Below are positions 24,192 through 36,815 of a stretch of 64,000 nucleotides of DNA, piece by piece. The DNA is taken from the IMG/VR virus record IMGVR_UViG_3300033405_000003; one strand, written 5' to 3'. The notes beneath the pieces were generated by a model that was given only the letters and a program-made list of their open reading frames with translations, did not search any database and was not told where the DNA came from. The position numbers and the translations under genes were made by a program. The stretch comes from a virus (taxonomy: Duplodnaviria > Caudoviricetes). The stretch's first letter is position 1; each line of letters starts with the position of its first letter.

Positions 24192-25064
24192 ATGATCCCG
24201 ATCCCCGTCTTCTACACCCACAAGATGGTCGCGGAGTCGGGCTGCGAGTCGCCGAGCGCGCTCAAGCCCGCCGCGGTCGTCGAGTCCTGGAAGCTCGAGT
24301 TCCCCGTCGAGATCATCCCGCCGTTGCCGGCGACGCTCGAGGAGCTTTGCCTCGCGCACGACCCGGAGTTCGTGAAGAACGTCCTGCTCGGCAAACGCGC
24401 GAACGGGTTCGGCAACAAGTCTCCGGCGGTCGCGGCGTCGCTCCTCTACACGACGGGCTCGATGCTCTCGGCCGCGCGCCACGCGCTCGCGTCGGGCGGC
24501 GCTGCCGCGGCGCCGTGCTCGGGGTTCCACCACGCGGGCTACGCGAGCGCCGAGGGGTTCTGCACGTTCAACGGGCTCATGGTTGCCGCGCTCGCGCTGA
24601 AGAAAGCGGGCAAGGTCGAGCGCGTCGGCATCCTCGACCTCGACTACCACTACGGCAACGGCACCGACAACATCATCCGCAAGCTCGGCTGCGAGAAGTG
24701 GATTTGGCACTTCACCGGCGGCGCCCGCTACACGAGCCCCTCGCAGGTGCCGGAGTTCTTCAGGGACAAGCTGCCGGAGGTCCTCGCGGCGATGACGACG
24801 TGCGACCTCGTCCTCTACCAGGCGGGCGCCGACGCGCACATCGACGACCCGTACGGCGGCTGGCTCACGACCATGCAGCTCCTCGAGCGGGACGCGATCA
24901 TCTTCAGCGCGCTCCGCGACGCCGACGTGCCCGTCGCCTGGAACCTCGCGGGCGGCTACCAGGTGGAGAAGGACGGGAGCATCCCGAAGGTGCTCGAGAT
25001 CCACGACAACACCATGCGCGAGTGCGTAAGCGCGTTCAGCGCGCCCAAGGACGCATCGAAGTGA
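24192..25064 (+). CDS. histone deacetylase family protein
   Basis: GFHHA, GFCTFN, LDLDYHYGNGT, QAGADAHIDDP, AGGY. Confidence 0.93.
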   Translation: MIPIPVFYTHKMVAESGCESPSALKPAAVVESWKLEFPVEIIPPLPATLEELCLAHDPEFVKNVLLGKRANGFGNKSPAVAASLLYTTGSMLSAARHALASGGAAAAPCSGFHHAGYASAEGFCTFNGLMVAALALKKAGKVERVGILDLDYHYGNGTDNIIRKLGCEKWIWHFTGGARYTSPSQVPEFFRDKLPEVLAAMTTCDLVLYQAGADAHIDDPYGGWLTTMQLLERDAIIFSALRDADVPVAWNLAGGYQVEKDGSIPKVLEIHDNTMRECVSAFSAPKDASK

Positions 25065-25436
25065 ACGCGATCGTCTTCGTGATCCTCGCGCTCGGGGCGA
25101 TCGTCGCCGTCGTCTTCGCGGGCTCGGCGCTCCTCTGGTGGCTCGACCGCTCGAGGCCTCCCGAATGACGCGGCGCCTGTGCGAGGCGTGCAGGGATGGC
25201 TCGCGCCCGATCAAGAACAAGGCGCGCTACTGCGCGGCATGCTCGCAGATGCCGTTGCCGTTCTACACACGCTCGGGCGCGCCGAGACCGCCGACGCGGA
25301 GCGAGCTGATCTCGGCCGAAGAAGAAAAATGGCGGACCTGGTCAGGAAGCGGTAAAGTCTCCGTCTGAGACCCCATGATCACGTCCACGAAAGCTCGTCC
25401 TCTCCATACGTGACCTCGAAAGAGGGATCTCCGTAT

Positions 25437-25512
25437 GGTGGATGTAGCCAAGTGGTTAAGGCGCTGCGTTGTGGCCGCAGTATTCGCGAGTTCGATCCTC
25501 GTCATCCACCCC
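25437..25512 (+). tRNA. tRNA-His(GTG)
   Basis: cloverleaf, G-1, ctgcg-tt-GTG-gc-cgcag. Confidence 0.9.
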
Positions 25513-25571
25513 GTCGAAAAAAGTTCTTGCACGTTCCCCGAAACCATGTCCTAGTGACTGAAGACACTCCG

Positions 25572-25760
25572 ATGCACACCTCGATGCCGAAATCGCCCAT
25601 GCAGACCCGGAGGCCGCTGAGCCAATCAGCAGTGCTTTCAGGGTCGTGGTGCATTTTGTGCCCAGTGACAGCGCCCGGAGTCGATAGCCTTGCACGCGTT
25701 TATCCGGCCTCCCCCAGCGAACCGAAGTTCGCGACGCGCAATCAGGAGGCCGGTACCTAG
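25572..25760 (+). CDS. putative 62-aa attenuator leader peptide
   Basis: 40 distinct codons, all 20 aa; stop abuts antiterminator strand. Confidence 0.6.
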   Translation: MHTSMPKSPMQTRRPLSQSAVLSGSWCILCPVTAPGVDSLARVYPASPSEPKFATRNQEAGT

Positions 25761-25832
25761 AGGCGGTTCTTTCACTCGCGCAACAGCGCAGGAAGGGCCG
25801 CCTCGGAGACGAGAGCGGCCCTTCGGCATTTC
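25760..25832 (+). terminator. mutually exclusive antiterminator/terminator hairpins
   Basis: 25760-25773 pairs with 25791-25804; alternatively 25792-25801 pairs with 25815-25824; weak U tract. Confidence 0.65.
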
Positions 25833-25971
25833 AGGGTCCGAAAAATTCGAAGGAGTGCAGATCGCGCACTAGCGATCTGCCCAAGCGGCGACTGCCGATC
25901 ACAGGAGACGTGTGTCCGATGAACGCCATGGCTCGAGAACGATATCAAAGCTCCGAACTCCCATATCGCAT

Positions 25972-26057
25972 GGGGCGTGTTCTGAGCGGTAGTAGCTCTA
26001 GCCGGCTGTAACCCGGTGGCCTTTTGGCAAGTGGTGCAACTCCATCACGCCTCACCA
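25972..26057 (+). tRNA. tRNA-Tyr(GTA), atypical
   Basis: ccgg-ct-GTA-ac-ccgg, V arm, 3' ACCA; T loop TGCAACT. Confidence 0.8.
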
Positions 26058-26121
26058 AGACAAGGACGAAGACGATGAAAACGAAGACCGCGCCCGTGAA
26101 GGCGGGCCCAAAAGAAAGCGA

Positions 26122-26193
26122 GGGACGTTAGCACCAAGGTGGTGCAGCCGCCTTTTAAGCGGCAAGGGCTCGGTCCGATTCCGAGGCGTCCCA
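26122..26193 (+). tRNA. tRNA-Lys(TTT)
   Basis: gccgc-ct-TTT-aa-gcggc. Confidence 0.85.
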
Positions 26194-26212
26194 CTCAGCC
26201 ACGAGGCTGAAC

Positions 26213-30042: not shown

Positions 30043-30118
30043 GGGCGCATCGTCCAACGGTTTAGGACGGCTCTCTGATAAGGAGCAAATCAAAGTTCAA
30101 CTCTTTGTGCGCCTACCA
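30043..30118 (+). tRNA. tRNA-Ile(GAT)
   Basis: gctct-ct-GAT-aa-ggagc, 3' ACCA. Confidence 0.9.
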
Positions 30119-30137
30119 GCCCCGAAACGGATTTGCC

Positions 30138-30671
30138 ATGTCCCCCACGACCACCCTCATCCTCAACCACTACATGCTCCCGCACAGGGTCAGCACCTGG
30201 CAGGAGGCCATCACGGAGCTTTTCACCGACAAGGTCGAGATCCTCCGATGGTACGACGACGTCGTTGTCTACCACAACGCCGAGCGCGGCATCACGATGA
30301 AGATGCCGGCCGTCGCGCGCCTGCTCAAGCCAGTCGCGACGCACAAGAAGGGCGTGAAGTTCTCGAGGGTCAACGTCATGGCCCGTGACAACTTCGTCTG
30401 CCAGTACTGCGGCAACAAGTTCGCGATGTCCGAACTCAACTACGACCACGTCCTGCCCCGCGTGCAGGGCGGCAAAACGGTCTGGGAGAACATCGTCACG
30501 AGCTGCTACGACTGCAACGACAAGAAGGGCGCCCGCACCCCCGAGCAGGCGAAGATGAAGCTCATTCGCAAGCCCTTCAAGCCCAAGACCCTCCCCCTCG
30601 CGCAGCCCGTCCTCGCGATGAGGGACATCCCTCTCGAGTGGGAACCCTGGACGGGTAGCGTCGCGGTGTAA
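30138..30671 (+). CDS. HNH endonuclease
   Basis: FSRVNVMARDNFVCQYCG, DHVLPR, WENIVTSCYDCNDKKG. Confidence 0.92.
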   Translation: MSPTTTLILNHYMLPHRVSTWQEAITELFTDKVEILRWYDDVVVYHNAERGITMKMPAVARLLKPVATHKKGVKFSRVNVMARDNFVCQYCGNKFAMSELNYDHVLPRVQGGKTVWENIVTSCYDCNDKKGARTPEQAKMKLIRKPFKPKTLPLAQPVLAMRDIPLEWEPWTGSVAV

Positions 30672-31469: not shown

Positions 31470-33161
31470 ATGACACGCTACTCGACCCACGTCTCGAACC
31501 TCTCCACCCCGCAGCGCGAGAAGGCCCGCCCCGACCAGGTGGAGAACAACGCCGGGGGCTTCGTCTTCCAGCTCGACTGCTGGCAGCGCCTCGACAGGTT
31601 CCTCGTTCTCGGAACCGAGGGCGGCACGTACTACGCTGGCGAGAAGGAGCACACGATCCAGGCCTCGAAGGCCGTGGAGGAGTGCATCAGGGCCGACGGG
31701 CCGCGCACGGTCGCGCGCATCGTCGAGATCTCGGACGGGGGCCGCGCGCCGAAGAACGACCCCGCCATCTTCGCGCTCGCGATGTGCGCCGGGGCCGACG
31801 GCCCCGCGACGCGCCAGGCCGCGCTCGCCGCGCTGCCGAAGGTGTGCCGCATCGGCACGCACCTCTTCCACTTCGCCGCAGACGTCGAGTACTTCCGGCG
31901 CTGGGGCCGGTCGCTGAGGACCGCCGTCGCCAAGTGGTACAACGACAAGACCGCGAGCGACCTCGCGTACGACTGCATCAAGTACCAGCAGAGGGACGGC
32001 TGGGCGCACCGGGACGTCCTGCGCCTCGCGCACCCGACGCCCAAGACCCCCGAGCACGCGGCGATCATGCGCTACGTGACCGTCGGTATGGCCGGCATGT
32101 CGGAGAAGCGCGAGAAGCACGCGCGCGACAAGGCGCACGACAAGGACAAGCTCCCGGCGATCATCGCCGCGTTCGAGGAGATCCACTCGGCCGGCGTCAC
32201 GCCCGGCCGCGCGGCGCGCCTCATCTCGGAGTTCAGGCTCCCCCACGAGTGCGTCCCGAACGAGATGAAGAACGAGAAGATCGTGTGGGAGGCGCTCCTC
32301 GAGCACATCGGCCCGACTGCGCTCATCAGGAACCTCGGCAAGCTCTCGAGCCTCGGAATGACGAAGCCGATGGGCGAGCATACGAAGCTCATCGCCGAGA
32401 AGCTCGCCGACAAGGCCGCGCTCAAGAAGGGACGCGTTCATCCGATGACCGTCCTCTACGCGATGAAGACCTACGCGGGAGGGCACGGCCTGAAGGGCTC
32501 GCTCTCGTGGACGCCGGAGCGCGCCGTCGTGGACGCGCTCGACGACGCCTTCTACGCGAGCTTCGACGTGATCGAGCCGACGGGCAAGGCGACGTTCCTC
32601 GCGCTCGACGTGTCGGGCTCGATGGGCACGCCCATAGGCGGCACCTCGCTCACGTGCCGCGAGGCCAGCGCAGCGATGGCGATGGTCACCGCGCGCGCCG
32701 AGAAGAACTGGGCGTGCGTCGGGTTCACGTCCGGCGGGCGCGGCTACGGCGGGATGCACGGCGGCGACCCGTCCGGCGTCACCGAGCTGAAGGTCAGCCC
32801 GCGCCAGAGGCTCGACGACGTCGTCAAGGCGATCTCGGGCCTGCCGTTCGGAGGGACGGACTGCGCCCTGCCGATGCTCCACGCGACCAAGCACAACCTC
32901 GCCGTCGACGTCTTCCACGTCTACACGGACAACGAGACGTGGGCCGGGGCAGTCCACCCGTTCCAGGCGCTCGAGCAGTACCGGCAGAAGTCGGGTCGGG
33001 ACGCCAAGATCTGTGTCGTCGGGATGACGGCGACCGAGTACACCATCGCCCAGCCCGGTTCGGAATGGATGAAGGACGTCGGCAAGAACCCGAGGTCGCT
33101 CAACGTGATCGGGTTCGACACGACGGCGCCGAGCATCATGGCGGAGTTCGCGCGGGGGTGA
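31470..33161 (+). CDS. rsr: Ro60 / TROVE-domain RNA-binding protein with vWA domain
   Basis: NNAGGFVF, RFLVLGTEGGTYY, KYQQRDGWAHRDVLRLAHP, LDVSGSM, GGTDCALPM, TDNETW. Confidence 0.96.
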   Translation: MTRYSTHVSNLSTPQREKARPDQVENNAGGFVFQLDCWQRLDRFLVLGTEGGTYYAGEKEHTIQASKAVEECIRADGPRTVARIVEISDGGRAPKNDPAIFALAMCAGADGPATRQAALAALPKVCRIGTHLFHFAADVEYFRRWGRSLRTAVAKWYNDKTASDLAYDCIKYQQRDGWAHRDVLRLAHPTPKTPEHAAIMRYVTVGMAGMSEKREKHARDKAHDKDKLPAIIAAFEEIHSAGVTPGRAARLISEFRLPHECVPNEMKNEKIVWEALLEHIGPTALIRNLGKLSSLGMTKPMGEHTKLIAEKLADKAALKKGRVHPMTVLYAMKTYAGGHGLKGSLSWTPERAVVDALDDAFYASFDVIEPTGKATFLALDVSGSMGTPIGGTSLTCREASAAMAMVTARAEKNWACVGFTSGGRGYGGMHGGDPSGVTELKVSPRQRLDDVVKAISGLPFGGTDCALPMLHATKHNLAVDVFHVYTDNETWAGAVHPFQALEQYRQKSGRDAKICVVGMTATEYTIAQPGSEWMKDVGKNPRSLNVIGFDTTAPSIMAEFARG

Positions 33162-35298: not shown

Positions 35299-35574
35299 TC
35301 ACGTTTGCTCCGTGTGATGCCCGCAGTGCGGACAGGTACCGGGCGTGGGGAAGCGACCGGCGAGGACGTCGTCCACGCCAACCGACGCGAAACGCGCGAT
35401 GCGGACGGCCAGGCTCGCGCTGGCCACCTTGCGCGAGCATGCGATCTGTCCGAGCGTCGTCGCCTTGAAGTGCAAAGCCTTTGCAACTGGCTCCCACCCG
35501 CCGCAACGCGCCCGCAGGTAGCGGAGCGCGGTGCGGACGTTGGTCTGCTCGGCAGGCGTGAGGTCGGCGCTCAT
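35299..35574 (-). CDS. XRE-like HTH protein with CPHC, coupled to transposase
   Basis: ATGA overlap with transposase stop; similar to 12867/13250. Confidence 0.75.
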   Translation of the reverse strand: MSADLTPAEQTNVRTALRYLRARCGGWEPVAKALHFKATTLGQIACSRKVASASLAVRIARFASVGVDDVLAGRFPTPGTCPHCGHHTEQT

Positions 35575-36815
35575 TGTGACGCTCCGTTCGCGACAGGCGG
35601 GAGCCAGAACTTCGGCTCGATGTTGAACTCGTAGATCGAATGGACGAGCGTGGAGAGGTTGAAGCAGAGGCACTTCAGGAGCACCTCGTTCACCTGCGCT
35701 ACGGGCAGCTTGCTCCGAAGCGCGGCACCGAACTTCTTCTTCATCGCGCCGAACGTGCTCTCGACGTTGGAGCGCTTGTGGTAGTGCGCGAGGAAGTCTT
35801 CCTTGTTGAGGGAGTAGTAGTGAAACATCCGCTCCCACGCCGGGCTGCCCATGCTCTTCGAGTTGAGCTTGAACGGCACGAACGGCGTCGCGCCGACGCC
35901 CTCGACGATGGCGAGGTTCGCGTGGCTCAGGTAACCCTTGTCCGCGCTGATCTCCTTCATGTCGTAGCCGTGCGCAGCGGTGCGCTCGACGAGCGTCTTG
36001 AACATCGGTGAGTCGTGCACGGTGCTGTCGGTGACCGCGACGGACGTGATGATGTTGGTGACGGTGCCGATCATGGCATGGCACTTCACCCACTTCTGGA
36101 CGCGGCGATCTTCGCCGTGCTTGTAGTCGAACCATCGCACGTACGTCGGCGTTGCGAAGCCAGTCGCGTCGGCCGCGAAGTCGTGCTCGATGGCCTTGAG
36201 CGGCGTCGCGGCAAGCTCGACGAGGCTCGTCAGCACGGGCGTCAGCTCGGGCTTCTGGCAGTAGTTGAAGATCGAGTTGTAGTGCGGCTGCCGCGTCATG
36301 AGGCCTGCGGCCTTGCACGCCTTGATGTCCGTGGTCGCGCGTCGCCCGCTGACGGTCGTGTAGACCTTGGTCGCCATGCCGTACACCGCGTCCGCGAGCG
36401 GGATGGGCTTGGGACCGCGTCCGGGGTGTGGAGGCGTCACGATCGTGTCGCAGAGCGAGCGGAGGAGGACCTGGGAGACCTCCTTCTCGGTGCACTGCGC
36501 CGCGTTGTACGCGCGCCAGTCTTGGGAGTACGAGATGCGTTCTACGGTTTCGGTCACGACAGTCGTCCCGTCGGGCATCTGCACTTCGTGGCGGAAGTAC
36601 CGGAGTGCCCAGAGGTGCTTGCAGAGATCGCGATGCGTCTCGTAGTCCGGGCACGTACACTCGCTCTTGACCGCGTCGACGACGTAGCCGCTTCCCGAGT
36701 TTGTGGCCGACGGCACGAGAAACATGTCGCCAGAGATTTGCCGGAACAGCTTGGCGCGCCCCTTCGCGAGAGCGAGCCCCCGTTCCTGCCGAGGACTGAT
36801 GACTGCCGTATCCAT
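35571..36815 (-). mobile_element. DDE transposase (IS4/IS5/ISH3-like) with N-terminal SWIM Zn finger
   Basis: CTCPD...CKH; ADATG, ADKGY, YHKRSNVES; element ends not found. Confidence 0.88.

What the first reader, a model, noticed from the sequence alone, without database searches (positions are those of the whole stretch)
25572..25832. Codon-sampler leader peptide and attenuator upstream of the tRNA array: a pan-tRNA starvation sensor
Seen: a 62-codon ORF uses 40 different codons and all 20 amino acids, with several isoacceptor classes per family (Thr acc/aca/acg, Ser tcg/tca/tcc/agc, Pro ccg/ccc/cca, Ala gca/gcg/gcc, Gly ggg/gga/ggt, Lys, Gln and Glu both codons), unlike the G/C-ending bias of neighbouring genes. 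Its TAG overlaps GAGGCGGTTCTTTC (25760-25773), which can pair over 14 bp with 25791-25804, the 5' arm of a strong hairpin (25792-25824). Established: this is the geometry of ribosome-mediated attenuators. Inference: complete translation masks the antiterminator and keeps the array off, whereas stalling at any depleted or cleaved tRNA turns on the 41 downstream tRNA genes. The U tract is weak.
Basis: partly seen in the sequence, partly recalled or inferred. Interest (0 to 1): 0.85.

Follow-up and report, generated by a model that had tools for sequence, protein, structure and literature searches.

The report
All-amino-acid leader switch before phage tRNAs
A large soil or peat phage and at least 28 relatives begin their 30-40-gene tRNA array with a small translated gene that nearly always holds all 20 amino acids and ends on a stop/go RNA switch. 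The phage probably makes its own tRNAs whenever ribosomes decode any codon slowly, a control I could not find published for tRNA genes.

Summary
There are no expression data.

- **The window alone proves little.** The 62-codon ORF (25572-25760) looks like chance: stop-free random sequence of this composition gives 37.6 +/- 2.5 distinct codons.
- **The ORF is translated.** I recovered 29 distinct homologs, always at the head of the same tRNA array. The ORF stays in frame in all of them, at 49-77 codons. It is the only frame of six that is open in all 19 DNA homologs.
- **Coverage is kept.** 28 of 29 peptides hold all 20 amino acids; one lacks only His. When a single-copy residue is lost at its usual site, it reappears elsewhere. 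In the window the ORF touches all 32 anticodon species of the array. Real-gene windows of the same length reach 30 at most.
- **The switch is real.** The terminator hairpin (25792-25824) and the rival pairing of 25760-25773 with its 5' arm both show compensatory changes. The nascent transcript folds the antiterminator first in 19 of 19.

The best model is a trp-type ribosome-mediated attenuator that senses the overall tRNA supply.

Weak points are the poor U tract, an unlocated promoter, and tRNA-His lying upstream of the switch. This scan has noted analogous leaders in other phages. I found no publication describing one.

The parts
25438..25512 (+). tRNA-His(GUG). It lies upstream of the switch in the window's clade, so by position it is outside the switch's control. 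It is absent upstream in the divergent clade (L101, L133, L169, L219).
   Evidence: ARAGORN and Rfam tRNA at 61.6 bits.
25518..25560 (+). Conserved block: an A-tract, TTGCAC, then CATGTCCTAGTGA. It is a candidate promoter or processing signal for the leader. This is not established.
   Evidence: The block is conserved in alignment A2. The sigma-70 scan found no match here. This part is inference only.
25572..25760 (+). Leader ORF: 62 codons plus TAG, 40 distinct codons, all 20 amino acids, rich in codons that are rare in this phage.
   Evidence: - Codon and amino-acid counts.
- Frame kept in 19 of 19 DNA homologs, with 11 length classes that are all multiples of 3; it is the only frame stop-free in all of them.
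- 28 of 29 distinct peptides hold all 20 amino acids.
- Rare-codon use.
- It samples 32 of 32 array anticodons.
25604..25645 (+). Predicted hairpin inside the ORF (GACCC...GGGTC). Its tip is deleted in relatives by 9 or 12 nt, which keeps the frame.
   Evidence: MFE fold and alignment A2. It was not recovered by RNAalifold, so support is weak.
25704..25753 (+). Hairpin in the last third of the ORF: CCGGCCTCC (25704-25712) pairs with GGAGGCCGG (25745-25753), enclosing GCGAAC/GTTCGC (25717-25732). It may be an RNA-polymerase pause hairpin like the trp 1:2 structure. That role is inferred.
   Evidence: RNAalifold pairs 304-312 with 393-401, kept in 17-19 of 19 sequences but almost invariant, so there is little covariation.
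25760..25773 (+). Antiterminator 5' strand (seg1). It begins at the last base of the stop codon.
   Evidence: - Duplex with the hairpin's 5' arm is -20.6 to -28.2 kcal/mol in 19 of 19 homologs, against -7 to -12 for shuffles. Cognate pairs beat non-cognate pairs (p = 1.3e-4).
- 81.7% of cells are paired, against 40-60% when the partner is slid. 19 cells carry compensatory changes, reached by 0 of 500 shuffles.
25778..25789 (+). Small spacer hairpin (GCGC-AACA-GCGC) between the two strands of the antiterminator.
   Evidence: RNAalifold pair 429/442 changes GC to UA in 5 sequences.
25792..25824 (+). Terminator-like hairpin: 14 bp, GNRA-type loop, bulged A at 25814. Its 5' arm (25791-25804) is shared with the antiterminator.
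   Evidence: - Folds.
- 86.8% of cells are paired, against 26-59% when slid. 7 pairs carry double changes, reached by 0 of 500 shuffles.
- It is the MFE state of the full transcript in 16 of 19 homologs.
25825..25840 (+). Conserved tail GGC-R-TTTC-W-GG with only 3-4 U. This is the presumed termination zone.
   Evidence: Alignment A2. The terminator scan did not call it.
25972..26057 (+). tRNA-Tyr(GUA)-like gene, the first gene after the switch. tRNA-Lys(UUU) at 26122 and the rest of the array follow.
   Evidence: Neither ARAGORN nor Rfam calls it in the window. Its homologs at the same place are called tRNA-Tyr in L088, L139, L128, L118, L105, L106, L152, L169, L133 and L219.

Best explanation
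This is a ribosome-mediated (leader-peptide) transcription attenuator at the head of a phage tRNA array. Its leader is built to test the whole decoding apparatus rather than one amino acid.

**Proposed mechanism**
1. RNA polymerase transcribes the leader while a ribosome translates the 62-codon ORF.
2. If the ribosome keeps pace and reaches the last codons or the TAG, its footprint covers 25760-25773.
3. The 5' arm (25791-25804) then pairs with 25810-25824. The terminator hairpin forms and transcription stops near 25830, so the array stays off.
4. If the ribosome is held up earlier, 25760-25773 stays free. The cause could be a scarce, uncharged or cleaved tRNA for any of about 40 codons, or a general failure of translation.
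5. The free segment pairs with the 5' arm as soon as that arm is made. The terminator cannot form, and polymerase reads on into tRNA-Tyr, Lys, Lys, Gln, Asn and the rest.
6. The tRNAs made would relieve the stall, so the circuit would be a negative-feedback gauge of tRNA supply.

**Shown by conservation and covariation:** the ORF is under selection to stay open and to keep every amino acid. Two mutually exclusive helices are both under selection. The antiterminator abuts the stop codon.

**Inferred:** that the hairpin terminates transcription, the direction of the response, and that tRNA supply is the natural signal.
For: **1. The ORF is translated.**
- 19 distinct DNA homologs have 11 different ORF lengths (156-231 nt), all multiples of 3.
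- The non-coding stretch from the stop codon to the tail varies with no such bias (mod 3 = 7/6/5).
- This is the only one of six frames free of stops in all 19.
- The homologs were found without reference to the frame: through Ro60 synteny and a 17-mer scan plus nhmmer.

**2. Coverage of all 20 amino acids is kept.**
- All 20 are present in 19 of 19 homologs.
- They are also present in 9 of 10 further distinct peptides from a profile search that did not require the 17-mer. The exception lacks only His.
- Independent draws from the family's own composition give all 20 in only 0.9-3% of peptides of 52-62 residues.
- Column shuffles keep all 19 complete in 0 of 5000 trials globally, and in 4 of 5000 when shuffled within clades.
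- For W, D, H, Y and N, 15 of 16 sequences that lost the residue at its usual column carry it elsewhere. Only 12 of 129 sequences that kept it there have a second copy. One example is L143, where SWC became SFC while TRRP became TWRP.

**3. Codon choice is unusual.**
- There are 36-47 distinct codons, against 29-33 expected if the same peptides used the phage's codon usage (p <= 0.001 each).
- GAT, TAT and GAA occur exactly once in 19 of 19 homologs, although the phage's genes use GAC 92%, TAC 96% and GAG 87% of the time.
- The window ORF touches 32 of 32 anticodon species of the array by wobble rules. Across 947 62-codon windows of real genes the mean is 23.6 and the maximum 30.
- In other complete arrays the leader touches 28-33 of 30-34 species.

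**4. The switch.** Both helices show compensatory changes and beat the slid and shuffled controls. The transcript cut at the end of the 5' arm folds the antiterminator (13-16 pairs) in 19 of 19. The full transcript favours the terminator in 16 of 19.

**5. Context.** The order is constant: (tRNA-His), ORF, switch, tRNA-Tyr, Lys, Lys, Gln, Asn and onward. In the divergent clade the module directly follows a protein gene at the start of the array.
Against: - There are no expression data.
- The tail after the hairpin has only 3-4 U, and they lie 4-5 nt from the stem. The consensus terminator scan did not call it.
- The hairpin keeps a GNRA-type loop and a bulged A, which a plain terminator does not need.
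- No promoter could be located, and the host is unknown.
- The ribosome-binding site is weak (GAAGA). The start codon may be sequestered in a helix.
- Conserved peptide blocks coincide with conserved RNA blocks. Selection on the peptide and on the RNA therefore cannot be separated.
- Gene callers did not call the ORF on the window's own phage.
- 14 of the 19 DNA homologs were found through an exact 17-mer at the ORF's end, so the invariance of that end is by construction.
- Gln-CUG, Glu-CUC and Gly-GCC are often sampled only in the last five codons. A stall there would mask rather than free the antiterminator.
- The shuffle tests do not fully correct for relatedness among the sequences.
Confidence: 0.6

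Rival explanations
1. The switch is a real ribosome-dependent attenuator, but it does not gauge tRNA supply. It reports general transcription-translation coupling or ribosome availability. Alternatively, a nascent-peptide arrest occurs at the conserved C-terminus (NQEAGT-stop) in response to a specific ligand or factor, as with TnaC or the antibiotic-responsive leaders. The all-20 composition would then be secondary.
For: The peptide has conserved motifs (SWC, YPAS, the PKFA type, NQEAGT) ending exactly at the stop codon. Length-variable N-terminal and internal segments fit a spacer in the exit tunnel. Long leaders of about 54 residues that sense general translation stress are known; BmrB-bmrCD (PMC4191407) appeared in the search.
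Against: - It does not explain why all 20 amino acids are retained through relocations.
- It does not explain why rare codons of nearly every isoacceptor occur about once each.
- The invariance of the C-terminal codons is partly an artefact of how the homologs were found. Variants ending AGP and ADT exist.
Confidence: 0.15
2. It is an ordinary small phage protein gene of 49-77 residues with its own terminator, or a dual-function RNA whose peptide acts in trans, as peTrpL does. The tRNA array would be transcribed independently.
For: The frame and several residues are conserved. A hairpin follows the stop codon. Some gene callers predict the ORF as a hypothetical protein.
Against: - A plain gene does not need a conserved, covarying alternative pairing between the stop-codon region and the terminator's 5' arm.
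- GC3 is 0.65-0.79 against 0.90 in genes.
- Synonymous sites in several blocks are nearly invariant.
- There is no Pfam or PHROG match.
- Its position is fixed at the head of the array in every lineage.
Confidence: 0.1
3. The two alternative structures control something other than termination. They might control processing or stability of the tRNA precursor (an RNase III or RNase E site), Rho access, or binding of a protein such as a Nus factor. The polarity could then be opposite, with translation needed for array expression.
For: The U tract is poor. The hairpin has a conserved GNRA-type loop and a bulged A, and the tail is conserved. Long untranslated tRNA arrays are potential Rho targets; that point is general knowledge, not tested here.
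Against: - The geometry is that of classical attenuators: the antiterminator abuts the stop codon, a GC-rich 14-bp hairpin follows, and the antiterminator folds first in the nascent RNA.
- A boxA-like resemblance in 25766-25775 is not conserved across homologs, whereas the pairing is.
- There is no Rfam match.
Confidence: 0.1
4. It is a structured non-coding RNA or spacer, and the ORF is incidental. High-GC DNA has many open frames.
For: In the window alone the ORF is unremarkable. About 12% of frames of this length are open at this composition (my estimate). Its codon diversity equals that of random sequence. An earlier first-stage note on a homolog read the region as non-coding.
Against: There are 11 length classes, all multiples of 3. 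It is the only frame open in all 19 homologs. The ATG and the stop are conserved. Non-coding flanks vary without any multiple-of-3 bias.
Confidence: 0.03

Closest known systems
Leader-peptide transcription attenuators of amino-acid operons (trpL, hisL, leuL, pheL, thrL, and the multivalent ilv leaders)
   Same: A short translated ORF is followed by a terminator hairpin whose 5' arm can instead pair with an upstream segment. That segment lies where a ribosome at the stop codon masks it. A ribosome stalled at hungry codons favours read-through. The product of the controlled genes relieves the stall. Using rare codons to raise sensitivity has a precedent in the leu leader (from memory).
   Different: - The controlled genes are tRNA genes of a phage, not biosynthetic enzymes.
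- The leader is 49-77 codons long rather than 14-32.
- It has no run of one amino acid. It holds roughly one copy of each rare residue and about 40 different codons.
- I found no conserved '1:2' pairing that would enforce termination without translation, so an untranslated leader should read through.
- The U tract is weak.
Ribosome-mediated attenuators that sense general translation stress (bmrB-bmrCD of Bacillus subtilis, PMC4191407; leaders of the vmlR, msrD and erm classes)
   Same: A longer leader ORF (BmrB has 54 residues) is used. Slowing the ribosome anywhere or at specific sites prevents terminator formation and switches on genes that restore translation capacity.
   Different: Those systems respond to antibiotics and control transporters, ABC-F factors or methylases. 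None is reported to keep all 20 amino acids or to control tRNA genes.
T-box riboswitches
   Same: The functional aim is the same: sense the state of tRNA and switch a terminator/antiterminator pair to restore decoding capacity.
   Different: A T-box binds one uncharged tRNA directly, without a ribosome, and controls synthetase or amino-acid genes. There is no T-box match here, and the sensor here is a translated ORF.
Analogous leaders noted earlier in this scan on other phages (e1-5391745, e1-5403646, e1-5365171 and others)
   Same: They describe small translated leaders, some holding all 20 amino acids, wired to a terminator/antiterminator ahead of phage tRNA arrays.
   Different: They are in different genomes, mostly lake-water or Bacteroidota-type phages. 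No sequence likeness to this family turned up (one search found only this genome and one unexamined homolog). They are AI notes, not publications, and I did not test them.

Membership tests
Leader-peptide (ribosome-mediated) transcription attenuator | A short ORF upstream of the regulated genes that is actually translated | tested here: met
   The frame is kept through 11 length classes in 19 homologs, and it is the only stop-free frame. Translation itself was not measured.
Leader-peptide (ribosome-mediated) transcription attenuator | An intrinsic terminator (GC-rich hairpin plus U tract) between the leader and the regulated genes | tested here: inconclusive
   The hairpin is strong and covaries. 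The U tract has only 3-4 U, set 4-5 nt from the stem, and the scan did not call it.
Leader-peptide (ribosome-mediated) transcription attenuator | An antiterminator that excludes the terminator and is placed so that a ribosome at the end of the ORF masks it | tested here: met
   25760-25773 pairs with 25791-25804. The pairing starts at the stop codon, is conserved and covarying in 19 of 19 homologs, and forms first in the nascent RNA.
Leader-peptide (ribosome-mediated) transcription attenuator | Regulatory codons that match the product of the controlled genes | tested here: met
   The leader samples 32 of 32 anticodon species of the array in the window, and 28-33 of 30-34 in relatives. All 20 amino acids are present in 28 of 29 peptides. 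The form is new: no codon run, about one of each.
Leader-peptide (ribosome-mediated) transcription attenuator | Read-through rises when the cognate charged tRNA is scarce | not testable with these tools
   This needs reporter, Term-seq or in-vitro coupled assays.
T-box riboswitch | Stem I specifier loop and the conserved T-box antiterminator sequence (Rfam RF00230) | tested here: not met
   No Rfam match in 25300-26200 other than the tRNAs, even at E <= 10.
Y RNA / YrlA (ligand of the Ro60 encoded at 31470-33161) | 5' and 3' ends paired in a long stem holding the Ro60-binding helix, and a match to the Rfam Y-RNA models | tested here: not met
   No Rfam match. A conserved ORF fills the RNA. I saw only a weak possible 5'/3' pairing.
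Processive antitermination sites (lambda nut boxA/boxB, rrn boxA, HK022 put) | A conserved boxA-type sequence or the put two-hairpin fold | tested here: not met
   A boxA-like string at about 25766-25775 is not conserved among homologs. What is conserved there is complementarity to the hairpin arm.

The most novel reading that the evidence does not exclude
The element is a self-regulating gauge of the whole tRNA pool. One leader, holding about one rare codon for nearly every tRNA species the phage encodes, turns on the 30-40-gene array whenever any single tRNA becomes limiting. The cause could be host codon mismatch, starvation or anticodon-nuclease defence. The leader turns the array off again once the phage tRNAs have restored decoding. 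With the second, Tyr-codon-bearing small ORF that runs into tRNA-Tyr (25919-26011), the array would carry both a global and a gene-specific ribosome-based sensor.
Probability: 0.45. Interest if true: 0.9.

Novelty: new variant of a known kind. Interest (0 to 1): 0.8.

Why it matters
How phages time and dose their tRNA genes is an open question. These genes are usually treated as constitutive cargo.

A leader that tests every amino acid and nearly every isoacceptor would show that phages measure the host's decoding capacity and respond to it. It would extend leader-peptide attenuation from single amino acids to the whole tRNA pool, and from protein genes to RNA genes. It would also suggest a direct answer by the phage to tRNA-cleaving host defences.

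The family has at least 29 natural variants with built-in compensatory changes. That makes the idea directly testable with reporters. The element could also serve as a compact sensor of translation stress.

Tried and rejected
- **Initial view: chance ORF in a spacer.** Random-sequence controls, low GC3 and the absence of a gene call supported it. I rejected it after the comparative analysis.
- **HDAC-like neighbour (24192-25064) as an anchor for relatives.** It returned 80 viral loci, but almost none has a tRNA array next to it and none has the leader.
- **Ro60 as a single-sequence query in viral contigs.** Nothing was found. It worked through the protein database plus contig look-up.
- **Exact search for the hairpin in viral contigs.** Nothing was found. 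The 16-mer GGGTCGTGGTGCATTT gave only chance hits.
- **17-mer scan of genome contigs.** All 41 hits were chance; none matched the nhmmer profile. I found no copy in a bacterial genome.
- **Rfam at a permissive threshold.** There was no family hit other than tRNA.
- **Y-RNA idea, prompted by the Ro60 gene.** Rejected; see the membership test.
- **boxA/nut-like idea.** Rejected because the string is not conserved.
- **Promoter search.** No sigma-70 match. The conserved block 25518-25560 fits no -10 hexamer.
- **Terminator calibration on the rest of the window.** It was uninformative. Most hits lie antisense to genes, and a second call failed on a size limit.
- **Further copies of the module in the window.** None was found.
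- **Literature.** Four searches found no description of a leader-peptide attenuator before tRNA genes.

Full report
**What is there.** The window is part of a large, high-GC (about 65%), virus-like contig. No genome is held for it. Its genes match phage families, and it encodes a Ro60 homolog, an HNH nuclease and a metallophosphoesterase. ARAGORN finds 31 co-oriented tRNA genes between 25438 and 30783.

The finding lies between tRNA-His (25438-25512) and a tRNA-Tyr-like gene (25972-26057). ARAGORN misses that Tyr gene here but calls it in relatives. The ORF has 62 codons, 40 distinct codons and all 20 amino acids, with GC3 of 0.71 against 0.90 in genes. The 14-bp pairing of 25760-25773 with 25791-25804 and the hairpin 25792-25824 are all exactly as described.

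**The single sequence is not enough.** Stop-free random sequence of the local composition shows 37.6 +/- 2.5 distinct codons. It reaches 40 or more in 22% of trials and has all 20 amino acids in 3%. The window's own phage was assembled in several samples, and no gene caller called this ORF. My first reading was therefore a chance ORF in a structured spacer.

**Homologs.** The neighbouring HDAC-like gene did not lead to related arrays. The Ro60 protein did. Contigs encoding Ro60 at 77-81% identity (L084, L086, L088, L089) carry the same array, with a homologous spacer of 76-80% DNA identity.

A 17-mer at the end of the ORF was then scanned in the viral and metagenome collections and filtered with nhmmer. 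This raised the set to 25 loci and 19 distinct sequences. A profile search of the peptide alignment added 10 further distinct peptides, several of which lack the exact 17-mer.

Every locus with enough flank shows the same order: (tRNA-His), ORF, hairpin, tRNA-Tyr, Lys, Lys, Gln, Asn and so on. In a divergent clade (L101, L133, L169, L219) there is no tRNA-His upstream. In L101 and L219 the flank shows that the module follows a protein-coding gene, at the very start of the array. None of the 41 hits in bacterial and archaeal genomes was a true homolog.

**The ORF is translated.**
- The 19 DNA homologs have 11 different ORF lengths (156-231 nt), all multiples of three.
- The distance from the stop codon to the conserved tail varies with residues 7/6/5 modulo 3.
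- This frame alone, of six, has no stop in any homolog.
- Insertions of up to 20 codons and deletions of 3-4 codons inside predicted hairpin tips keep the frame.

This rules out an incidental ORF.

**Every amino acid is kept.**
- All 19 peptides (52-77 residues) contain all 20 amino acids.
- So do 9 of the 10 additional peptides. The exception (L218) has lost only its single His codon.
- Invariant alignment columns supply only 9 of the 20 residue types.
- Random peptides drawn from the family's own composition are complete in 0.9-3% of cases at 52-62 residues.
- Shuffling alignment columns leaves all 19 complete in 0 of 5000 trials, or 4 of 5000 when shuffled only within three clades.
- D, H, W and Y occur exactly once in each of the 19.
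- For W, D, H, Y and N, 15 of 16 sequences that lost the residue at its usual column have it elsewhere. A second copy exists in only 12 of 129 sequences that kept it.

Examples of relocation are W in L143, a K/N swap in L088 and L152, D in P0135, and H, Y and I in the divergent clade. These tests do not fully remove shared ancestry, since the divergent clade counts as one event. The pattern nonetheless recurs in separate lineages and held up in the 10 peptides added afterwards by the profile search.

**Codons.**
- The leaders use 36-47 distinct codons. The same peptides written in the phage's own usage would use 29-33 (p <= 0.001 each).
- Codons that are rare in the phage's genes recur about once per leader. 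GAT, TAT and GAA are each present once in 19 of 19. AAT, ATT, AAA and CAA are present in 17 of 19, and ACA and AGG in 18 of 19.
- By standard wobble rules the window's ORF touches all 32 anticodon species detected in its array. Among 947 62-codon windows of real genes the mean is 23.6 and the maximum 30.
- Relatives with complete arrays reach 28-33 of 30-34.

Part of this could follow from RNA-structure constraints or from relaxed codon selection. The retention of TAT when Tyr moved argues for more than that.

**The switch.**
- The hairpin is present in all homologs, with a GNRA-type loop and a bulged A.
- On a plain MAFFT alignment it has 86.8% of cells paired, against 26-59% when the partner is slid. 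Seven pairs carry double changes, reached by 0 of 500 shuffles.
- The rival helix (25760-25773 with the 5' arm) has 81.7% paired, against 40-60% when slid. Six pairs and 19 cells carry double changes, reached by 0 of 500 shuffles.
- Without relying on an alignment, its duplex energy is -20.6 to -28.2 kcal/mol in every homolog. That is about as strong as the terminator arms (-22.6 to -31.9).
- Each segment pairs better with its own arm than with the arms of other homologs (-24.9 against -20.5; p = 1.3e-4).
- In L164 and L143 the same position changes in all three strands.
- A transcript ending at the 5' arm folds the antiterminator in 19 of 19. The complete leader prefers the terminator in 16 of 19.

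The antiterminator strand starts at the last base of the stop codon, or within a few bases of it, in all homologs. A terminating ribosome would therefore cover it. This is the trp-leader geometry.

**Mechanism.** Efficient translation to the stop codon masks 25760-25773, the terminator forms, and the array stays off. A ribosome delayed at any earlier codon, or no ribosome at all, leaves the segment free. The antiterminator then forms first and polymerase reads into the tRNA genes, whose products remove the delay.

The conserved hairpin 25704-25753 just before the stop may pause the polymerase until the ribosome arrives, as the trp 1:2 hairpin does. That point is inferred.

**Weak points.**
- There are no RNA data.
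- The U tract is weak and was not called by the scan.
- The promoter is not located and the host is unknown.
- The ribosome-binding site is weak.
- The start codon may be paired.
- Peptide and RNA conservation overlap.
- Codons in the last five positions could not signal by this route.
- tRNA-His lies outside the switch.

**Comparison and novelty.** The architecture meets the structural criteria of leader-peptide attenuators except for a convincing U tract. It is neither a T-box, nor a Y RNA, nor a nut or put site.

New here are the target (a phage tRNA array) and the leader design (about one of everything instead of a run of one residue). Four literature searches found nothing like it.

Within this scan, analogous leaders have been noted and followed up on other, unrelated phages, including all-20 leaders. 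One homolog of this family was earlier read as non-coding. Those notes are not independent evidence, and I did not test them.

Noticed in passing
window 25919-26011 (+): A second conserved small ORF carries the motif R-E-[RS]-Y-[QRC]-[SR]-S and a single TAT codon. An AGGAG precedes it, and it runs into the tRNA-Tyr-like gene. In all 19 homologs the ATG-to-TAT distance is a multiple of 3 although it varies from 3 to 11 codons. The 3' ends differ. It may be a Tyr-specific ribosome sensor acting on the tRNA-Tyr precursor; that is speculation.
   Followed up: partly
window 25972-26057 (+): A tRNA-Tyr(GUA)-like gene with an unusual T arm. Neither ARAGORN nor Rfam calls it in the window, but ARAGORN calls its homologs at the same place tRNA-Tyr in ten related loci.
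   Followed up: partly
window 25856-25884 (+): A 9-bp hairpin (GCAGATCGC ... GCGATCTGC) lies between the terminator tail and the second small ORF. It is conserved in the window's clade. Its function is unknown.
   Followed up: no
L218:1501-1704 (homolog P0136): This is the only homolog that lacks an amino acid, and the one it lacks is His. His is the one amino acid whose tRNA gene lies upstream of, and so outside, the switch. In most homologs His is codon 2. In the clade without an upstream tRNA-His it sits at codons 7-9.
   Followed up: partly
window 31470-33161 (+): A Ro60 homolog (TROVE plus vWA domains; PHROG 850) lies just after the tRNA array. It has thousands of relatives in metagenomes, and those at 77-81% identity mostly sit beside the same array. 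One relative (L085) has Ro60 next to an RtcB ligase and a class-I tRNA synthetase, with no array within 10 kb.
   Followed up: partly
window 30105-30671 (+): An HNH endonuclease gene sits inside the tRNA array, at the same place in the relatives.
   Followed up: no
window 40221-40772 (-): A gene with IF3_N and IF3_C domains (a translation initiation factor 3 homolog) lies on the phage, according to the Pfam marks on the identical contig L081.
   Followed up: no
window 44872-44947 (+): ARAGORN reports a tRNA with a four-base anticodon call (atct). Rfam scores it as a tRNA at 50 bits. It sits beside tRNA-Met and a second tRNA-Tyr, away from the main array.
   Followed up: no
window 24192-25064 (+): A histone-deacetylase-family gene is widespread in viral contigs (80 loci at 34-67% identity). 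It is not linked to tRNA arrays elsewhere.
   Followed up: partly
window 35571-36815 (-): A DDE transposase (with a weak SWIM match) and small regulator genes lie downstream of Ro60. They are present in the window's phage, but the equivalent place in L084 has other genes.
   Followed up: no
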